The notes below the pieces were generated by a model. It did not search any database, was not told the DNA's origin, and worked only from the letters and a program-made list of their open reading frames with translations. A DNA stretch of 64,000 nucleotides from Naegleria gruberi (taxonomy: Eukaryota): assembly GCA_000004985.1 (NCBI GenBank), contig GG738865.1; one strand, given 5' to 3'. This document shows positions 11,315-20,300 of the stretch, one piece after another. A program made the position numbers and the translations under genes. The first letter of the stretch is position 1; every line of letters begins with the position of its first letter.

Positions 11315-12826
11315 TCAGAGTTGATATTCGGAAAATTCAAAACTGAATGGCTCCTTTTCAACAATCATTGAGCCAATTTCATCATTGTCAAGTAATGATT
11401 CGTAACATACTGAAAGACAACAAATACTCTTCAATTTATCCTTAGCACTGTTGAAAAAGATGGATGTGTAATAATTCTTGAAATTTTTCCTCTCGTTTGA
11501 TTTCTTCCACAACCTGACCTTCTTTAATACATGTCTCTCAATGGTATTCTCAATGAGGAGAGGAGATCCCACCATGAGGGAGTGGGAACTAGATGACACA
11601 CATCCATTGTATAAATAGTACAGTACTCTCATGGTGTGAATCAATATGAAATCAATGCTCAATAGATTATACTTGTCCAATTCATAAATCCACCTCGAAA
11701 CGATATGATTCAATACTTTAAAGTTTTTCTTTGGAGTTGGCTCGAGAGGTTGAGGGATTTCAAAATAGTTTGTATTCGATTGTTTGATAAATTTGGGTTG
11801 AATCCACATTGGTTTGAATCTGCCTTCAAATGTTGATATTAAAGACTTGGTTGCTCGTTTCATTCTAATCTTTTTCCAAATATCTGTTATGATTTCTTCC
11901 TCATTGCCACTACTGCCATTACTTCCACTTGATTCTTCTTCATCTTCGCTATCTTGTCTATTTGTATCAATTGTCTTCTTTTTGGCATTTGATAAAAAAT
12001 TCCAATCTTTTCTTTGGTCAACTGGAGAAGAATCAGTACTATTGGGAAAATTTAGTGTTTTTCTTCCTTTTTGAAAAGTTTCTGAATGGATAATCGTCCA
12101 ACAATTATCCTTTCGCTTTGACAATAGTATTGAATCCATTTTCAGTTCGACATCATTCATTGAAAAGAACCAATTTGACATGGTAATTTCACTCCAATCA
12201 CAACAAACTCCCTTCTTTAGTGCACTTCTAAAATCAATTTGTAAAAATTGAGGAATTGGGGCTGAAAATTGGGTTCTTTTCAATCCTCTTATCCAATTAG
12301 GTTCCGTAAAAAAAGACTTTTTATCCACCAACAAGGAACACTTATTAATTGAAAATAGGTAATTTGAAATCATGAGAGTGGCCTGTCTCCTCGTTCTCAG
12401 TTTTGTTTGACTTTTCAAATAAATTTCCAATTGTCTTTGTAAATTTAATTTAAATTCCTCCCTCAATTTAATATCCTCCAATGAGAGGGAATAATTCGGA
12501 TCATCATGAAATCTTTCATTTTGCTCACGATAATTAATTGATTTGTTATAGATAAACACCTGATTGGTGGGCACTAATTCCGAAATATAATTCCAAATAT
12601 TATCAGATAGATAGGGCCACAGAGAGTGAATATCATCCCTATTGATTTTATCATACCATTTATGACAGACAAGACTTGATTGAATTAAAATGGATGGTAG
12701 TGGTAGATAACTCAAAATACTATTGAATAATTCATCAATTTCAAATAAATGGTGCCAAAAGTTTTCCGAAAGGGTCAATTTTGTGGATAAACTTTTTGTC
12801 AAGTTTTTCATTTTTTTTAATTTCAA
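11315..12826 (-). CDS. F-box domain protein (hypothetical)
   Basis: 503-aa ORF with an N-terminal F-box (LFNSILSYLPLPSILIQSSLVCHKWYDKI). The remainder has no recognisable domain. Confidence 0.6.
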   Translation of the reverse strand: MKLKKMKNLTKSLSTKLTLSENFWHHLFEIDELFNSILSYLPLPSILIQSSLVCHKWYDKINRDDIHSLWPYLSDNIWNYISELVPTNQVFIYNKSINYREQNERFHDDPNYSLSLEDIKLREEFKLNLQRQLEIYLKSQTKLRTRRQATLMISNYLFSINKCSLLVDKKSFFTEPNWIRGLKRTQFSAPIPQFLQIDFRSALKKGVCCDWSEITMSNWFFSMNDVELKMDSILLSKRKDNCWTIIHSETFQKGRKTLNFPNSTDSSPVDQRKDWNFLSNAKKKTIDTNRQDSEDEEESSGSNGSSGNEEEIITDIWKKIRMKRATKSLISTFEGRFKPMWIQPKFIKQSNTNYFEIPQPLEPTPKKNFKVLNHIVSRWIYELDKYNLLSIDFILIHTMRVLYYLYNGCVSSSSHSLMVGSPLLIENTIERHVLKKVRLWKKSNERKNFKNYYTSIFFNSAKDKLKSICCLSVCYESLLDNDEIGSMIVEKEPFSFEFSEYQL

Positions 12827-13011: not shown

Positions 13012-13083
13012 TCCCGTGTGGTCCAATGGCTAAGATACCTGGCTCTCACCCAGGAGATCCGGGTTCAATTCCCGGCACGGGAG
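13012..13083 (+). tRNA. tRNA-Glu (anticodon CTC)
   Basis: 72-nt cloverleaf: acceptor TCCCGTG/CACGGGA, D-arm GTCCAATGGCTAAGAT, anticodon stem CCTGG/CCAGG with loop CTCTCAC (anticodon CTC), T-arm GGGTTCAATTCCCGG. Near-identical to canonical eukaryotic tRNA-Glu. Confidence 0.9.
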
Positions 13084-13345: not shown

Positions 13346-14695
13346 ATGTTGGGTCAGTCATCATCTTTAAAAAAAATGGCAACTAAAGTAACCGAAACTC
13401 TTGTTGTGCTTTTGTTGTTATTCTTCGCTACTGCTTCTGGCATTAACGCATCATCACCTGCGGAGCCAGCATTCAAAAGTCAATTACGTTCATGTTTTGA
13501 AGCAAATAGAAATACCGAATGTTTGGCCACACAATCATCTTGGTCTTCATGTGGAGGTTCAGTTTATTCTTCATATCAACTTGCACTCTCCATCTCAATG
13601 AATTGTATGAGAAGTGTCTGTGGAAGTCAAAATAGTTTATGTTGCAATACCTATTGTACAATGTATGGTTTATCTGGATATGATCATTCAGTTTGTTTCA
13701 ATAAGTGTTTCAATGGATATACTGGTTCAGTTGTTGGTGCTGCAACTTTGATGAAAACAATCAAGAGTAGTTTGGATACCAATGTTGATTATGTTCCTCC
13801 TGCCACAGCTCAAAAGAAGGACGATGAAACCAAAGTCTATTGTGATATTCCATGTAATTCAGAATTTGCTTTCTATTCCACAACTGGTAAACAACCAAGT
13901 ATTTTAAATGGTGGTTTGAAGGCATTGTTGGCTTCTAATACCAAGACTAATACTTTGGCTGCTAAGAAAAAGCTCATTTCTTCTTGGTCAACCAAGGTTG
14001 GTTCCTCTAAGCCATCATCCTCATCCTCCTCCTCACGTAAGAGCATCAGCAGCATTAAAAGCATCATTGGAAGAAGTAATAGTGGTTACAACAAGGCCAT
14101 TTCAAAGAGCATCTCAAAATACCTTGGCTTCAAACCAGTTAAACAAATTAATAGTGATCTGGTCTATAAGAGACTTGTTAAATTTGTTTCAAGCATTCCA
14201 AGTCTTGGATACATCTTGAGAGGTATTCGTGATAAGAAAACCAGAACCTACCTTACAAGAGGTTACAAATTCATTCAAGCTGCTAGAAAACAAGTCTATC
14301 CACAAAAAGCATTTGCAATCTATGATGGTAAAGTATTGAATGTGAAAGCCACAGTTCAATTGGGTAATCCAGCATTGGTTAAGCAGAGAAGTACCATTTT
14401 CCCAATTCCATTCAATTCATTGACTCCATCTTCACTTTCAAAGAAATCCTTTTTCAATTCCAGTGTTAAACATAATCAAATCTGTACTGGTACAGCTATT
14501 GCCAAAGTGGAATATTATCGTAGATCTCGTATCACTTGTAAAAAGATCAAGTCATGGATTAGTGGAGCTTCAAAGATTAATCCAAAGAATATTTATCAAG
14601 TCAACAAGTTCCTCTTCCTTGTTTATAATCAATGTAAGAAAGCTAAAGCTACTTGTGTTGTTCCATTTGTTGAAGCAATCAAAACAACTGATTAA
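13346..14695 (+). CDS. Secreted cysteine-rich protein, paralogue 1 of a three-member uncharacterised family (likely start at second Met, 13376: MATKVTETLVVLLLLFFATASG)
   Basis: Signal peptide, then a ~10-Cys N-terminal module (SCFEANRNTEC..SSCGGS..MNCMRSVCGSQNSLCCNTYCTMYGLSGYDHSVCFNKCF). A K/S-rich linker follows. The conserved C-terminal 4-Cys module is QICTGT..YYRRSRITCKKIKSW..NQCKKAKATCVVPF. Confidence 0.7.
   Translation: MLGQSSSLKKMATKVTETLVVLLLLFFATASGINASSPAEPAFKSQLRSCFEANRNTECLATQSSWSSCGGSVYSSYQLALSISMNCMRSVCGSQNSLCCNTYCTMYGLSGYDHSVCFNKCFNGYTGSVVGAATLMKTIKSSLDTNVDYVPPATAQKKDDETKVYCDIPCNSEFAFYSTTGKQPSILNGGLKALLASNTKTNTLAAKKKLISSWSTKVGSSKPSSSSSSSRKSISSIKSIIGRSNSGYNKAISKSISKYLGFKPVKQINSDLVYKRLVKFVSSIPSLGYILRGIRDKKTRTYLTRGYKFIQAARKQVYPQKAFAIYDGKVLNVKATVQLGNPALVKQRSTIFPIPFNSLTPSSLSKKSFFNSSVKHNQICTGTAIAKVEYYRRSRITCKKIKSWISGASKINPKNIYQVNKFLFLVYNQCKKAKATCVVPFVEAIKTTD
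13445..13740. repeat. Left arm of a ~300-bp inverted repeat (partner 16740..17035), about 95% identical
   Basis: The N-terminal ~100 mature residues of paralogues 1 and 3 are identical. Shadow ORFs 13473..13661(-) and 16797..16985(+) differ at 3 of 62 residues. Nucleotide differences I could read are synonymous (e.g. TCACCTGCGGAG vs TCTCCAGCGGAA). Confidence 0.65.
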
Positions 14696-14904
14696 ATTTT
14701 TGTAATTCAATAACTTTTTACAAATATAATATTAATAATATTGAAAAATACTTATTACAATTACAGGTCTGTTACAAAATCTTTTAATGGATAGGAATAG
14801 CATTTTTAAAATACTCGCTCAAACTATATGCAAATTAAACAGTGTACTTTTCACCAAATGTGTATGTGACTCAAAACATCCAACTGTCACACCAGTAAAA
14901 AAAA

Positions 14905-15894
14905 ATGACATTGTCATCCAAACAAATTGTCGTTGTGTTAATTATTGTTGGATTCTGTGTTTCTTACACATTGGCTTCTTCTGCCAGCGAACCAGCATTC
15001 AAAAGTCAATTACGTTCATGTTTTGAAGGAAACAGAAACACAGAATGCATAGTCAATCAAGGAAGCTGGAATTCTTGTGGTCGTTCAGTTTATTCTTCCT
15101 ATCAATTAGCTGTTTCCATTTCAATGAATTGTATGAGAAGTGTTTGTGGTAGTCAAAATGGTTTATGTTGTAATACTTATTGTTCAATGTTTGGTTTATC
15201 TGGAAGTGATCATTCGAATTGTTTCTCCTCATGTTATAATTCATACAGGCCATCGACAAATGGTGGTTCATCTTTTGGTGGAAATATTCCTGCAGCTAGT
15301 GATGCTTTAACTGGTTCTGTATCTTGTTCTATTCCATGCGCTGCTGCTTTCTCCTTCTATGAAAATAAAGTAGCCGAAAGTGTGGCCAAAAAACCAGCAG
15401 AAGTCAAGACATTCAAAACTTTGGTCAAGAATTTACAATCTGGCAAACCAATCAAAAAATCAAATCCTGGCTACACAATCACCTCTGCCAAGACTTTGTC
15501 AACCAGCAGCCCTAGTTCTGCAACCTATTTCACAGCACTTAAACCAAAAGTTGTCCTGAAGGGAAGTGAACATAATCAAGTCTTACGTACCTCTATTGAA
15601 GAAGCTGTTCCAACAAACTTGGACTCGGCTCAATTTTACAATTCTCAAGTGGCATCCAATCAAATTTGTTCCAATTCAATGAAAGATGTTGTAAAGGTTT
15701 CAATTTTGAAGAATACCAAAATTGAATGTTCTAAATTGTTGCAATGGATTAAGAATGATAAGACAATTGCTCCTGAAAATTTGGAAAATGTTTATAATTT
15801 CATGTTGGTTTTGCATCAAAAGTGTTCTGCTTTGCCAAATAGTAAATGTGTCATGCCAAATGTTGGATCCATCAAGCTCACTAACACTAAATAA
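14905..15894 (+). CDS. Secreted cysteine-rich protein, paralogue 2 (more divergent)
   Basis: Signal peptide (MTLSSKQIVVVLIIVGFCVSYTLASSA). Same N-terminal Cys module (SCFEGNRNTEC..CGSQNGLCCNTYCSMFGLSGSDHSNCFSSC) and C-terminal module (QICSNS..IECSKLLQW..HQKCSALPNSKCVMP). Confidence 0.7.
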   Translation: MTLSSKQIVVVLIIVGFCVSYTLASSASEPAFKSQLRSCFEGNRNTECIVNQGSWNSCGRSVYSSYQLAVSISMNCMRSVCGSQNGLCCNTYCSMFGLSGSDHSNCFSSCYNSYRPSTNGGSSFGGNIPAASDALTGSVSCSIPCAAAFSFYENKVAESVAKKPAEVKTFKTLVKNLQSGKPIKKSNPGYTITSAKTLSTSSPSSATYFTALKPKVVLKGSEHNQVLRTSIEEAVPTNLDSAQFYNSQVASNQICSNSMKDVVKVSILKNTKIECSKLLQWIKNDKTIAPENLENVYNFMLVLHQKCSALPNSKCVMPNVGSIKLTNTK

Positions 15895-15969
15895 ATTGTG
15901 GATCTATCAATTAATAACTAATTTTTATTAGAAAGCACCCAAATCATAAATTTCCAAAATAAAATTATT

Positions 15970-17124
15970 TTAAAGAGTGTCAGTATTCAAATTAATTCTT
16001 CTAAACATTGGAACAACACATTGTTTAGACTTCTTTGGAATGAGAGATCTACACTTATTATGAACAATCATCATGAATTTGTAAACAGTAAGCAAATTAT
16101 TTGGTGAAATTTCTGAAACTTCCTTCATCCAACGTTGAATCTTGTTACAATTTACTCTAGATCTCTTATAATAGGTAACTTCAACTGTCTTTCCAGTATT
16201 GGCACAGATTTGATTTTTACCAACTTGGCTGCTTTTCAAAACGGGATTCAAAGGGACAACCTTATCAAGTGAAATGTCAAAAACTTGAAGTCTGTCACGA
16301 GTTACTTGAATAACATTGGAAATCATCTTTTTATCAGTTTTTCCTGATGATTTAGAGGTTGATTTAGTGACCTTTCCATTCTTAATAGTTGTGAGTTTAG
16401 TTTTTTTCACAAAAGACGAAATGAAAAGTTTCTTCTTTTTGCCCAATACTGAAACTCCACCATTTCCACTTGCTGTTCCAGTAGTACTATTTGAACCATT
16501 AATTTGAGAAAGGAGAGTTCTCAAGAAATTTCTTTCCTTTCTTGTTGGTTGTTCATTGGCAAAATAAAAAGCATAAGTAGCATCACATGAAACAGAACAT
16601 TTGACAATGGCTTTATCATCAGTGGTGGCACTTTTTGGAACAAAGTCAGAGTTATCATCGAATGGGATGGAAGCATAAGCAATAGAAGTAGAAATTGGTT
16701 TCATCAAAGTTGCAGCAGCAGAAACAACTGAACCAGTATATCCATTGAAACACTTATTGAAACAAACTGAATGATCATATCCAGATAAACCATACATTGT
16801 ACAATAAGTATTGCAACATAAACTATTTTGACTTCCACAAACACTTCTCATACAATTCATTGAAATGGAGAGTGCAAGTTGATATGAAGAATAAACTGAA
16901 CCTCCACATGAAGACCAAGATGATTGTGTGGCTAAACATTCGGTATTTCTATTTGCTTCAAAACATGAACGTAATTGACTTTTGAATGCTGGTTCCGCTG
17001 GAGATGATGCATTGACAAAAGATGAAGATGTGAGAAGGGCTGCCAACAAGACGAAACATGCCAAAACTAGTGGATTGAATCTTGTCATTATTTTTTTTAA
17101 GCTTTCTTCAAAGATGTCACCCAC
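15970..17124 (-). CDS. Secreted cysteine-rich protein, paralogue 3 (inverted orientation; likely start MTRFNPLVLACFVLLAALL at ~17086)
   Basis: N-terminal module identical to paralogue 1 over ~100 aa, then diverged. C-terminal module QICANTGKTVEVTYYKRSRVNCNKIQRW..HNKCRSLIPKKSKQCVVPMF. Confidence 0.7.
   Translation of the reverse strand: MGDIFEESLKKIMTRFNPLVLACFVLLAALLTSSSFVNASSPAEPAFKSQLRSCFEANRNTECLATQSSWSSCGGSVYSSYQLALSISMNCMRSVCGSQNSLCCNTYCTMYGLSGYDHSVCFNKCFNGYTGSVVSAAATLMKPISTSIAYASIPFDDNSDFVPKSATTDDKAIVKCSVSCDATYAFYFANEQPTRKERNFLRTLLSQINGSNSTTGTASGNGGVSVLGKKKKLFISSFVKKTKLTTIKNGKVTKSTSKSSGKTDKKMISNVIQVTRDRLQVFDISLDKVVPLNPVLKSSQVGKNQICANTGKTVEVTYYKRSRVNCNKIQRWMKEVSEISPNNLLTVYKFMMIVHNKCRSLIPKKSKQCVVPMFRRINLNTDTL
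16740..17035. repeat. Right arm of the ~300-bp inverted repeat (partner 13445..13740)
   Basis: See the left-arm entry. The arms are separated by ~3 kb containing paralogue 2. Confidence 0.65.
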
Positions 17125-17305
17125 AAGAACACTGACACAATCAAAATGGGTAAATTTGTCAAAAAAAATTTAACACACTAAATATCTTATAACCATCACC
17201 CGTCAATATTATTATTCGAATCCAATGAACATTCAAAGAGAGATGAAAGAAATTAAAGGGAACTTGCAAGTGAAAAGTTCCCGCCAAAAATAACTACAAA
17301 AAAAA
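17125..17305. promoter_or_regulatory. Compact (~180 bp) divergent intergenic region between paralogue 3 (-) and the polytopic membrane protein gene (+); putative bidirectional promoter
   Basis: The two start codons (17124 on - and 17306 on +) face away from each other. The intervening sequence is AT-rich with an A-run immediately upstream of each ATG. Confidence 0.3.
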
Positions 17306-20300
17306 ATGAGTAAAAACATATGGTTGCCGCCACTTTCGCTATCATCTCTGCAGAGAAATGATGGGAAGAACATCATGTTTGACACTCAGAAAGTAATCAA
17401 GCCGACCACCTGGTTGTATATAATGATGATACTGCTGATATTGTTAATGAATAGTGGAGGAGTTGTGAGATGTGGAAATGTTGTGGAAGTGGATGCTGAG
17501 GAAGTGAGGCAGTTGGATTTATATTTGAAAAAATCAAAACCTGATTTGGAAAATTCTCAGCTAGCTTTATTGGCATTTAAGGAGACGAGTCAAATGCTTA
17601 TACTCACCAAGACATTGTCATCCTTGTCCATCACACCAAGAACAATATTTTACTCTGCAGGGTTTATCGGAAATACTATTGTTCAATTGAATGCAAGTGA
17701 AATCAAATTCACCTCCTTGGCTAATGTATTTAACAATTCAACAAGACCATACAAAGTTGTTGATAGGCTTACATCATTATGCTCTTCTACTCTTTCTCAA
17801 TTATATCAGAACAACACCTTTATTCCAAATTATTATATTTGTTTTTTCAAAACAACACTCACATCAGAGAATAGAGTTTTCTTCTCAACAACAAGTGAAG
17901 GATTCAGATGTTTAAAACTAAATTCGGATGGGGATGTAATAACCAAGGATGTTTCTAAGGGATTTATTGAAGATTTTGCTACCTCATTATGTGTTATAAC
18001 CATAATATTTATAGCCCTTCTGTGGGTACAAGGATCATTTAAAAGGAGAATTATTGATACAAAGAGATATCCCTTTACCAATTATTACTTTGGAAACGAT
18101 ACTGATTGGAACTCTTCAACTTTTTCGGATCTTTCAGTAACTCTTAGACCAATATTTCCATTCTTTAAACATTTTTCCAATCAGTTTGACAAGCTTTATA
18201 AACTGATATTCAGATCAATTCAAAACAAAGTGGACCAGGAACATATTAGGAAGTATAAGAAATTTGGCTCTTCAACACTGCTGAAATACCAATTATTCTT
18301 CGACTTTTTCCTCTTTATAGTTATTAGTTGCTTATCAATGGTGCAGTTATTTGTTCCTTCTGTACTATATTTCCCAAATTTTATTCAAATACCTATTAAT
18401 TTTGACCTTGGGAATGACGAAACCTTCACAAGTTATTGGATAGGAGGGGCTGATTTTGTACCTATCAGTTTGGGTTTTTGGTTAATATCCCTCACTTTGA
18501 TGATATTGGGAATAATTTTGTTAATAGTTACTTCTAGTTCAAAAGAAAAGATGATGTATTGGAGCACAAACTCTTTGCCAGACACCAACATTTTGGTTTT
18601 CACTGATGCAATCTTCAAAATTATTTTCATAGTCTTGATTAATGTGATAATCATTTTACTACCGTTCTGGACATTTACCATTAAGGGAGTTCTTATGGTG
18701 GTTATTACAATAGCATCTATTTTCTATGGGAGTCAACAAATTTTAATTCCAACAGAGAAGGTTATTCACGCTATTCATGATGGAAATTATAAGATGGTTG
18801 TTGCCTTCTTGATGTTTGCATATTTTAAGGAACTTCTAGTGATCATACCATTTTTTATTCAGATATTCATGGTGGCCGAAACTATATTTGGGCTAGTTTG
18901 GAGCTTGATTCTTTCCTTTGTTGCAAACAACAGCAAGCTTTCCTTGATTGGTATTTTTGGTATTGTAATTAATTCTGCAACAAGTTTACTTCAAGACTTA
19001 CTACAGCCATCCAGAGTTACCAGGAAAAAGATTGTGGAAAGGTCAGATACATTCGTTTTTCCCTCTCTAACAAAGACCAGCACACAATTCATCCTTGATA
19101 ATGTCGCTGCAAAATATGGTGGCATTATTAATACCTACTCTAAACTGGTAGAAAGTAATGAGATGGTGGATTATACATACAAGGATATTCTCTCATTAAA
19201 TGACAACTTGGAAGAACTTAAGGACATTACAAGAAAAAGAAGTCAGTCTGTTGGAAAATCTGAAAACGGTGAAGCTAAGCTAGCAGCAACAACTATTGAA
19301 AAAATTCACAACCCTGTTAACATCAAATTCGAAAAAAATGAAGACAAAAACGAAGAGGAGCTAAAAACAAGATATACGGAGATCAATGATAGGCCAAAGT
19401 ACATGCATGTTCTCTTCAAGAAAGAAATTGCCTTACTCGTTAGAGGCATCTTCCTTTCAACGCAAGAGAAGAAAAATGAAAAATTGAGAGTAATCTTTAA
19501 GAGAGGAGAGAGGCTTTATACTCCATTGTTGAATACAGACATCAGAAGAATCCATCACAATTTAGTGGGTAGAGTCAAGATAGCAACAGGAAATCTGAGT
19601 AATTATTTAGTAGTAATTTTGATTGCAATGATTATTTTCTTGTCTTTTACTTATTCTGGTGCTGAAAGTGATGGTATGGACATTATGTCAAATATGGCTA
19701 TTGTTATTTCAATCTTTATTCCACAACTTTTTGGAAGATTGGATGAAGGACAAGTTGATGAACTATTCGAAAGAAGAATTGAGGAAACTATCCTTTTAAC
19801 CAAGAGAGATCTTGCAAAGAAACTTGACTTACCAGAGAAGGATCTCAATTTTTGCATTTTCAATTTTCAAAACGATTCAGATATTAGTAACTTTTTAGAG
19901 CACAACACCCCAGCAGTGTCTGAAACTATTGGAAGAAAAATGTAAGTATATTTTAACGAATTGTTTTACTTGAATCAAATGAAAGATTGGAACATTGGGA
20001 AAGTGCTTCAACAAATGGATTTATTACAGCTCAAAAATTCAAGCCACTCATGCTTATTGTATGGGATGAAACCCTTAAAATCAATGCAAAGAAGGGCACT
20101 GCTTCCGCTACAAATGACTATCTCAAGACTCATAGCCAATTCTTGACATCATTTTCAAACATAATTTATTGTATTAGTAATTTTGAGGCTGACTCCTTTG
20201 TGAGTGCTTACGAATTCATTCACGCTGTGGAGCTTCTCAAAAAATCAATCACAAGAAAGGAAGAAGATCAATGCTCAGATATGGATATAACATTTGCATT

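What the first reader, a model, noticed from the sequence alone, without database searches (positions are those of the whole stretch)
13445..17035. Near-identical ~300-bp inverted repeat shared by the two outer paralogues
Paralogues 1 (+) and 3 (-) encode the same first ~100 mature residues, while the rest of the two proteins is only about 30-40% identical. The antisense shadow ORFs at 13473..13661 and 16797..16985 differ at only 3 of 62 codons. The nucleotide differences I could read are synonymous. This mosaic pattern points to recent gene conversion confined to the N-terminal Cys module. It also creates a 3-kb-spaced inverted repeat that could promote inversion by non-allelic recombination.
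Basis: seen in the sequence. Interest (0 to 1): 0.7.

Follow-up and report, generated by a model that had tools for sequence, protein, structure and literature searches.

The report
Converted inverted repeat in amoeba paralogues
Two of three neighbouring Naegleria gruberi genes for secreted cysteine-rich proteins share a nearly identical 300-base stretch in opposite orientation, best explained by one gene copying that stretch from the other; unexpectedly, the copied protein module also occurs as a small stand-alone protein in freshwater bacteria.

Summary
Window 13445-13743 and 16715-17013 form a 299-nt inverted repeat with 97% identity. It extends to about 317 nt across one 3-nt indel. Identity collapses on both sides. 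The window is Naegleria gruberi. The arms are the N-terminal cysteine module of two of three tandem paralogues that have signal peptides.

All 8 differences up to 13735 are synonymous third-position changes: dS is 0.14 and dN is 0. Elsewhere in the same two genes dS is about 1-1.9, and the third paralogue's module differs at dS 0.6-0.9. Protein-level selection alone therefore cannot explain the identity. Non-reciprocal recombination (gene conversion) confined to the module can. The event is not very recent.

A simulated inversion between the arms keeps both genes in frame and both mature proteins unchanged. It only swaps promoters and signal peptides. Whether inversion actually occurs cannot be tested here.

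Unexpectedly, the module is 64-75% identical to 114-116-aa secreted bacterial proteins. These occur in Acidovorax lacteus and in metagenomic contigs, always in an operon with an Lnt-like acyltransferase. The module is only 42% identical to the single-copy N. lovaniensis gene in the corresponding genomic neighbourhood. That implies exchange between bacteria and amoeba, with direction unresolved.

The conversion itself is an ordinary phenomenon. The module family is undescribed.

The parts
13445..13743 (+). Left arm of the inverted repeat. It encodes the end of the signal peptide and the N-terminal Cys module of paralogue 1.
   Evidence: I1, 299 nt, 97%. (8 synonymous and 2 edge mismatches).
16715..17013 (-). 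Right arm of the inverted repeat. It encodes the same module in paralogue 3.
13744..13761 (+). Short 3' extension of the homology (AATLMK) beyond a one-codon indel. Its partner is 16694-16714. The right breakpoint of the tract lies at about 13761.
   Evidence: I3, 88%. (blastn 13445-13761 versus 17013-16694, 95.9%). alignment.
13376..14695 (+). Paralogue 1 CDS. The annotated protein is P0001, 439 aa; the mechanical ORF starts at 13346. Layout: signal peptide, 10-Cys module, CxxxC element, Ser/Lys-rich linker, 4-Cys C-terminal module.
14905..15894 (+). Paralogue 2 CDS (P0003, 329 aa). Its module at 14974-15261 is 83% identical in nucleotides and 80% in amino acids to the arms.
   Evidence: (D1, I2).
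15970..17088 (-). Paralogue 3 CDS. The annotated protein is P0002, 372 aa; the mechanical ORF extends to 17124.
13473..13661 (-). Antisense shadow ORF inside the left arm. Its twin is at 16797-16985 on the plus strand. It is not a gene: all 4 nucleotide differences are silent in the sense frame and replacing in the antisense frame.

Best explanation
Three tandem, lineage-specific paralogues in Naegleria gruberi encode secreted proteins. Each has a signal peptide, a helical 10-Cys N-terminal module of about 95 aa, a low-complexity linker and a 4-Cys C-terminal module. The two outer copies lie in opposite orientation. At some point after the copies had diverged to saturation, a homologous-recombination repair event copied about 290-317 nt of the module from one outer copy into the other (interlocus gene conversion). 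The tract begins 3 codons before the predicted signal-peptide cleavage site (NA|SSPAEP). It ends about 10 codons past the last Cys of the module. This is the stretch where purifying selection on the module had kept enough nucleotide similarity for strand invasion; the diverged flanks stopped the tract (inference). Since then 8 synonymous and 0 replacement changes have accumulated, so the module peptide is under strong purifying selection. A by-product is a 3-kb-spaced inverted repeat. A crossover inside it would invert 13.7-16.7 kb and exchange promoter plus signal peptide between the two genes without altering either mature protein. That outcome is shown by simulation; whether it occurs is unknown. 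Shown here: the repeat, its boundaries, the synonymous-only differences, the dS contrast, and the in-frame outcome of inversion. Inferred: the recombination mechanism, why the tract is limited to the module, and secretion.
For: Repeat and boundaries. Module P1-P3 has dS 0.14 (8/62) and dN 0 (0/229). Elsewhere in the same gene pair dS is 0.97-1.9 and dN 0.5-0.8. The module in P2 differs from P1 and P3 at dS 0.62-0.86 and dN 0.21. Fisher tests give 5e-6 to 8e-13, and synonymous versus non-synonymous changes within the module give 3e-6. No other copies exist in the window. Only these three N. gruberi proteins were found among 5.8 billion database proteins. N. lovaniensis has a single copy in a genomic neighbourhood with the same flanking genes: TTL and Myb on one side and an ORF204 homologue on the other. 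The triplication and the repeat are therefore specific to the N. gruberi lineage. Simulated inversion keeps both ORFs open and both mature proteins identical. Naegleria encodes the RAD51, DMC1, MSH2 and MSH6 machinery (PMC9928731).
Against: No population or read data were available, so the event is inferred from one assembly. The direction of conversion (P1 to P3 or the reverse) is undetermined. Four of the 8 differences cluster in the first 21 nt (13447-13465), so there may have been two nested events, or the true tract may start at about 13466. A rooted three-gene discordance test between the module and the rest of the gene could not be done reliably, because C-terminal dS is saturated. An illegitimate 5'-segment duplication followed by fusion would leave the same pattern.
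Confidence: 0.8

Rival explanations
1. There was no conversion. P1 and P3 are old duplicates, and the module is simply so strongly constrained that it has not diverged.
For: dN is 0 across 229 non-synonymous sites. The module is highly conserved even between amoeba and bacteria.
Against: Constraint on the protein does not protect third positions. P2 carries the same module with 31 and 26 synonymous differences from P1 and P3 respectively (dS 0.62-0.86), against 8 between P1 and P3. The identity boundaries are sharp at the nucleotide level.
Confidence: 0.03
2. The repeat is an assembly artefact: one arm is a mis-assembled or collapsed copy of the other.
For: Only one assembly was available. Exact-protein look-ups found no second assembly.
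Against: The arms differ at 8 positions plus an indel at the edge. Each arm is joined in frame to unique, intact, homologous but diverged flanks: a different signal peptide on one side and a different body with a conserved C-terminal Cys module on the other. At 300 nt the arm is shorter than a Sanger read, so single reads should span it (this last point is inference from general knowledge of the N. gruberi genome project).
Confidence: 0.03
3. The pattern comes from a chimeric duplication rather than homologous conversion. In this view the 5' module segment of one copy was duplicated and joined by illegitimate recombination onto a diverged paralogue body.
For: The end result would be the same mosaic: a young module in old flanks.
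Against: Both junctions fall at exactly homologous, in-frame positions. The 5' flank (signal peptide and promoter) of each copy is also old and unique. The replaced piece is therefore internal to a pre-existing gene. That is the signature of a homology-guided patch rather than of an end-joining fusion.
Confidence: 0.1
4. The repeat is a programmed invertible switch whose arms are maintained because inversion regulates which body is expressed from which promoter.
For: Inversion would be in frame and would leave both mature proteins unchanged while swapping the 5' regulatory regions.
Against: No recombinase is nearby: the neighbours are an F-box protein and a protein with no Pfam domain. The arms are 97% rather than 100% identical, and the longest perfect block is 84 nt. 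N. lovaniensis has no such arrangement. There is no evidence for the second orientation.
Confidence: 0.04

Closest known systems
Interlocus (ectopic) gene conversion between inverted tandem paralogues. Examples from my own knowledge: the Drosophila hsp70Aa/Ab inverted pair, human RHD/RHCE, and arm-to-arm conversion in Y-chromosome palindromes.
   Same: Two paralogues in opposite orientation a few kb apart. A tract has much lower synonymous divergence than its flanks. The boundaries are sharp. The byproduct is a repeat able to mediate inversion.
   Different: Here the tract is restricted to one protein module of about 100 codons inside otherwise saturated genes. It is not kept near 100% identity (dS 0.14), and a third copy in direct orientation is not included.
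Domain-restricted conversion in secreted or surface multigene families. Examples from my own knowledge: segmental conversion in trypanosome VSG and Plasmodium var genes, and conserved exons of MHC genes.
   Same: A mosaic of conserved and diverged segments in tandem genes for extracellular Cys-rich proteins.
   Different: There are only three genes. There is no evidence of diversification, because the converted part is the conserved one. There is no evidence of a role in antigenic variation.
An unnamed bacterial family of small secreted proteins of 114-145 aa, encoded next to an Lnt-like apolipoprotein N-acyltransferase paralogue. Members were found in Acidovorax lacteus JCM 31890 and in metagenomic contigs.
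   Same: The predicted mature N-terminus is the same (SSP[AS]EP[AP]FKSQLRSCFE). The core motif is the same (C[MR]R.VCG..N.LCCNT[YF]C.M.G). Identity to the N. gruberi module is 64-75%.
   Different: The bacterial proteins are stand-alone, have 6-8 Cys rather than 10, and sit in a conserved operon. The Naegleria module is fused to a linker and a C-terminal Cys module that have no bacterial counterpart.
Site-specific invertible DNA switches (Hin/Gin-type invertible segments, shufflons).
   Same: Inverted repeats flank a segment whose inversion would re-pair 5' regulatory regions with different coding bodies.
   Different: No recombinase gene is present, the arms are long and imperfect rather than short core sites, and no second orientation has been observed.

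Membership tests
Interlocus gene-conversion tract | The segment has significantly lower synonymous divergence than the rest of the same gene pair. | tested here: met
   dS is 0.14 in the module against 0.97-1.9 elsewhere. Fisher p is 5e-6 to 8e-13.
Interlocus gene-conversion tract | The low divergence is not explained by constraint, because synonymous sites in the segment can vary. | tested here: met
   P2 carries the same module at dS 0.62-0.86 from P1 and P3. There are 63 sites where P1 = P3 but P2 differs.
Interlocus gene-conversion tract | Breakpoints are sharp and homologous, with old sequence on both sides. | tested here: met
   Identity drops to background 5' of 13445 and 3' of about 13761.
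Interlocus gene-conversion tract | The tree for the tract disagrees with the tree for the flanks. | tested here: inconclusive
   In the module P1 and P3 pair together (100% bootstrap). In the C-terminal module dN is 0.54 for P1-P3, 0.54 for P2-P3 and 0.74 for P1-P2, so P1 and P3 do not pair specifically there. However, the flanks are saturated and the tree is unrooted.
Interlocus gene-conversion tract | Both arms are confirmed in independent reads, assemblies or strains. | not testable with these tools
   No other record carries these proteins.
Programmed invertible switch | A dedicated recombinase is encoded nearby. | tested here: not met
   The neighbours are an F-box protein (11315-12826) and an 879-aa protein with no Pfam domain.
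Programmed invertible switch | Both orientations are present in a population. | not testable with these tools
   No reads were available.
Bacterial Lnt-associated small Cys protein family (unnamed) | Significant sequence homology over the whole mature module, including the conserved Cys and the N-terminal EP[AP][FY] motif. | tested here: met
   The profile search gave E-values of 2e-32 to 1e-8. blastp and tblastn gave 1e-30 to 1e-45.
Bacterial Lnt-associated small Cys protein family (unnamed) | A stand-alone protein of about 115 aa, encoded immediately upstream of or near an Lnt-like gene. | tested here: not met
   In Naegleria the module is the N-terminal domain of 329-439-aa proteins. No Lnt-like or operon-neighbour homologue is present in the window or in L001.
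Saposin-like / naegleriapore proteins (considered because they are small, helical and Cys-rich in Naegleria) | A match to the SapB/saposin profile or fold. | tested here: not met
Nucleoporin (database label of P0003) | A nucleoporin domain or FG repeats, and no secretory signal. | tested here: not met
   There is no Pfam family. The protein has a hydrophobic N-terminal leader and a Cys-rich module shared with secreted bacterial proteins.

The most novel reading that the evidence does not exclude
The N. gruberi module is not the vertically inherited counterpart of the N. lovaniensis module. Instead it is a later acquisition from a Comamonadaceae-type bacterium that overwrote an older, homologous, intron-containing module in the same gene. 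Tandem triplication and the P1/P3 conversion followed. This would be repeated bacteria-to-amoeba exchange of one secreted domain, with in-place xenologous replacement of a domain in a eukaryotic gene. Supporting observations: N. gruberi modules are 64-75% identical to type-A bacterial proteins but 42% identical to N. lovaniensis; they nest inside the bacterial clade (bootstrap 87-98%; 25 columns against 2); and N. lovaniensis is closest to a different bacterial subtype.
Probability: 0.3. Interest if true: 0.7.

Novelty: new member of a known kind. Interest (0 to 1): 0.45.

Why it matters
The conversion is a clean, small example of how homologous recombination and purifying selection together keep one domain homogeneous while the rest of two paralogues diverge freely. 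It also creates an inversion substrate that would swap regulatory regions without changing the mature proteins.

The more consequential result is that the converted domain belongs to an undescribed family shared at up to 75% identity between Naegleria and freshwater Betaproteobacteria. In the bacteria it is tied to an Lnt-like acyltransferase. That gives a concrete case for studying inter-domain transfer and domain fusion in a free-living amoeba. It also offers a first handle on the function of three orphan N. gruberi genes, one of which is labelled 'nucleoporin' without support.

Tried and rejected
Pfam and NCBIfam scans of the paralogues, the bacterial module proteins and their small operon neighbours found no family. 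Only the Lnt-like gene matched, below the TIGR00546 cut-off.

Exact-protein look-ups of P0001, P0002 and P0003 in other assemblies found nothing, so there was no independent check of the assembly or of orientation.

The viral-contig scan and the plasmid tblastn search for the module found nothing. No vector for the transfer was identified.

Base composition gives no clue to the direction of transfer. GC3 of the module is 15-21% in N. gruberi, and in bacteria it equals that of the operon neighbours.

The C-terminal part of the Naegleria proteins has no similarity to the bacterial operon neighbours. The idea that the amoeba gene is a fusion of two operon genes was therefore dropped.

No tandem repeats lie in 10-21 kb. 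Literature searches found nothing on this family.
Full report
**Observation.** The repeat exists as described. The repeat finder gives arms 13445-13743 and 16715-17013, 299 nt, 97% complementary, 2971 nt apart. A base-by-base comparison shows 10 mismatches. Eight are third-position synonymous changes, at 13447, 13456, 13459, 13465, 13525, 13594, 13618 and 13651. The other two, at 13736 and 13737, form one Gly/Ser replacement at the 3' edge. Upstream of 13445 identity is at background. Downstream, after a one-codon indel, another 24 of 26 nt match, so blastn aligns 13445-13761 with 17013-16694 at 95.9%. The only other match to the arm in the 64-kb window is the middle paralogue at 83%. All four of those differences are silent in the sense frame, which identifies the sense frame as the coding one.

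**What the genes are.** The window is Naegleria gruberi. The three ORFs are 100% identical to three proteins from an 820-kb N. gruberi scaffold (P0001, P0002, P0003). GC is about 34% throughout.
- All three proteins share one layout: a hydrophobic leader, a predicted cleavage site (NA|SS or LA|SS), a module of about 95 aa with 10 Cys, a CxxxC...FY element, a Ser/Lys-rich linker of variable length, and a 4-Cys C-terminal module.
- P1 (13376-14695) and P2 (14905-15894) are on the plus strand. P3 (15970-17088) is on the minus strand, so the two modules at the outer ends face each other as an inverted repeat.
- No Pfam family matches.
- These are the only N. gruberi members found in 5.8 billion proteins.
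- N. lovaniensis has one full-length homologue (P0005, KAG2370754.1). Its genomic neighbourhood shares the TTL and Myb genes on one side and an ORF204 homologue on the other. The triplication, and with it the inverted repeat, therefore arose in the N. gruberi lineage.

**Gene conversion.** Nei-Gojobori counts on a codon alignment give the following for P1 versus P3.

| Region | dS | dN |
|---|---|---|
| Module | 0.14 (8 of 62 sites) | 0 (0 of 229 sites) |
| Signal peptide | 1.26 | 0.80 |
| Middle | 1.9 | 0.78 |
| C-terminal module | 0.97 | 0.54 |

The contrasts are significant, with Fisher p of 5e-6 to 8e-13. The same module in P2 differs from P1 and P3 at dS 0.86 and 0.62 (dN about 0.21), so third positions in this module are not frozen. 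Protein-level selection alone therefore cannot produce 97% nucleotide identity. A non-reciprocal homologous exchange limited to the module can.

All 8 later changes are synonymous (p = 3e-6 against neutrality), so the module has stayed under strong purifying selection. The tract runs from 3 codons before the predicted mature N-terminus to about 10 codons beyond the last Cys. I infer that only the selectively conserved module kept enough nucleotide similarity for strand invasion, and that the diverged flanks terminated the tract.

The event is 'recent' only relative to the duplication. Four of the 8 differences lie in the first 21 nt. The core, 13466-13735, is 98.5% identical, which may indicate two nested events. 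Using P2 as outgroup, 6 of 7 resolvable differences are derived in P1, and 5 of those are A/T to G/C. The direction of conversion cannot be determined.

**Inversion.** I simulated a crossover inside the arms. Both ORFs remain open, at 370 and 441 aa. The mature products are exactly the present P3 and P1 proteins. Only promoter plus signal peptide are exchanged, and P2 flips orientation. Inversion would therefore carry little protein-level cost. Its occurrence is untested, however: the longest perfect block is 84 nt, no recombinase is nearby, and no reads or second assembly could be found.

**The module is shared with bacteria.** An exhaustive profile search returned only five cluster representatives. 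Four of them, together with the further hits, are proteins of 64-145 aa.
- Their contigs are bacterial. One is the isolate genome of Acidovorax lacteus JCM 31890, family Comamonadaceae (L003).
- 'Type A' context: a further eleven metagenomic contigs with a fixed arrangement, of which the five whose base composition was measured have 61-64% GC. The arrangement is a lipoprotein of about 300 aa, then the module protein (114-116 aa), then an Lnt-like protein of 500-547 aa. The contigs are L002, L004, L005 and L008-L014.
- 'Type B' context: two contigs with 45-48% GC. The arrangement is the module protein, then two small paralogous proteins, then the Lnt-like protein where the contig extends that far (L006; the 1.6-kb L007 ends before it).
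- The Lnt-like protein scores below the Lnt equivalog cut-off, so it is a paralogue of Lnt.
- Only the module is shared. The rest of the Naegleria proteins and the bacterial neighbours show no similarity to each other.
- Over the mature module, the N. gruberi copies are 64-75% identical to type-A proteins, with the single exception of P0004 (56-59%). They are 42% identical to N. lovaniensis.
- Neighbour-joining never recovers Naegleria monophyly (0 of 500 bootstraps). It places N. gruberi inside type A (87-98%).
- Twenty-five alignment columns unite N. gruberi with type A. Two unite the two Naegleria species alone. Four columns place N. gruberi with the P0011-P0017 subgroup inside type A.
- N. 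lovaniensis is closest to type B (53% over exon 1). Its module is split by a 115-nt GT..AG intron, whereas the N. gruberi copies are intronless.
- GC3 is fully native on both sides, so the transfer is old at the nucleotide level and composition does not indicate direction.
- No viral or plasmid copy was found.

The operon conservation and the nesting favour transfer from bacteria to amoeba. But the shared C-terminal module and the shared flanking genes of the two Naegleria loci then require either in-place replacement of the module in the N. gruberi lineage or strong rate acceleration and long-branch effects in N. lovaniensis. I could not resolve this with about 90 alignment columns and distance methods.

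**Comparison with what is known, and verdict.** Conversion between inverted tandem paralogues, and the inversion risk it creates, are textbook phenomena. This is a well-resolved new instance with a domain-restricted tract. The module family appears in neither Pfam nor NCBIfam, and the literature searches found nothing on it. Its distribution across bacteria and Naegleria is the part that deserves follow-up.

Noticed in passing
window 13448-13735, 14974-15261, 16723-17010; loci L002-L014: The N-terminal Cys module is 64-75% identical to stand-alone secreted proteins of 114-116 aa in Acidovorax lacteus and in metagenomic bacterial contigs. There it always sits in an operon with an Lnt-like acyltransferase paralogue. 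N. gruberi nests inside this bacterial clade, while N. lovaniensis (42% identity) does not. This implies inter-domain transfer, with direction and number of events unresolved.
   Followed up: partly
L001 10001-11186 (N. lovaniensis PYSW02000081.1): The single N. lovaniensis homologue has a 115-nt GT..AG intron inside the module, after CCNTFCKM. The three N. gruberi copies are intronless. The neighbourhood shares flanking genes with the window (TTL and Myb; an ORF204 homologue) but with local inversions and different intervening genes.
   Followed up: partly
window 13012-13083 (+): A tRNA-Glu(CTC) gene lies about 290 nt upstream of the paralogue 1 start codon, at the left edge of the three-gene cluster. 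It was not examined for any link with the origin of the cluster.
   Followed up: no
window 14905-15894 (P0003): Public databases label paralogue 2 'nucleoporin'. Nothing supports this: there is no Pfam domain, and the protein has a secretory leader and a Cys-rich module shared with secreted bacterial proteins. The label is probably an automatic mis-annotation.
   Followed up: partly
window 13456-13651: With P2 as outgroup, 6 of 7 resolvable P1/P3 differences are derived in P1, and 5 of those 6 are A/T to G/C. The module has GC3 of only 15-21%. This could hint at GC-biased repair or at a further exchange between P2 and P3, but the numbers are too small to decide.
   Followed up: no
window 13473-13661 (-), 15053-15271 (-), 16797-16985 (+): An antisense reading frame stays open across the module in all three paralogues (62, 72 and 62 codons). 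The P1/P3 differences are all replacing in that frame and silent in the sense frame, so these ORFs are most likely a by-product of the module's codon composition.
   Followed up: partly
window 17089-17305: Paralogue 3 and the 879-aa ORF at 17306-19945 (no Pfam hit) are transcribed divergently from an intergenic region of only about 220 nt. An inversion between the arms would place the paralogue 1 body under this shared region.
   Followed up: no
L006 827-1906 and L007 569-1581: In the lower-GC 'type B' bacterial context, the two small genes that follow the module gene (and precede the Lnt-like gene in L006) share a motif (DGIY.CN...S[VI]NGK..G.T.F) and look like paralogues of each other. Type A instead has a single lipoprotein of about 300 aa with a lipobox (L[AT][AG]CGG).
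   Followed up: no
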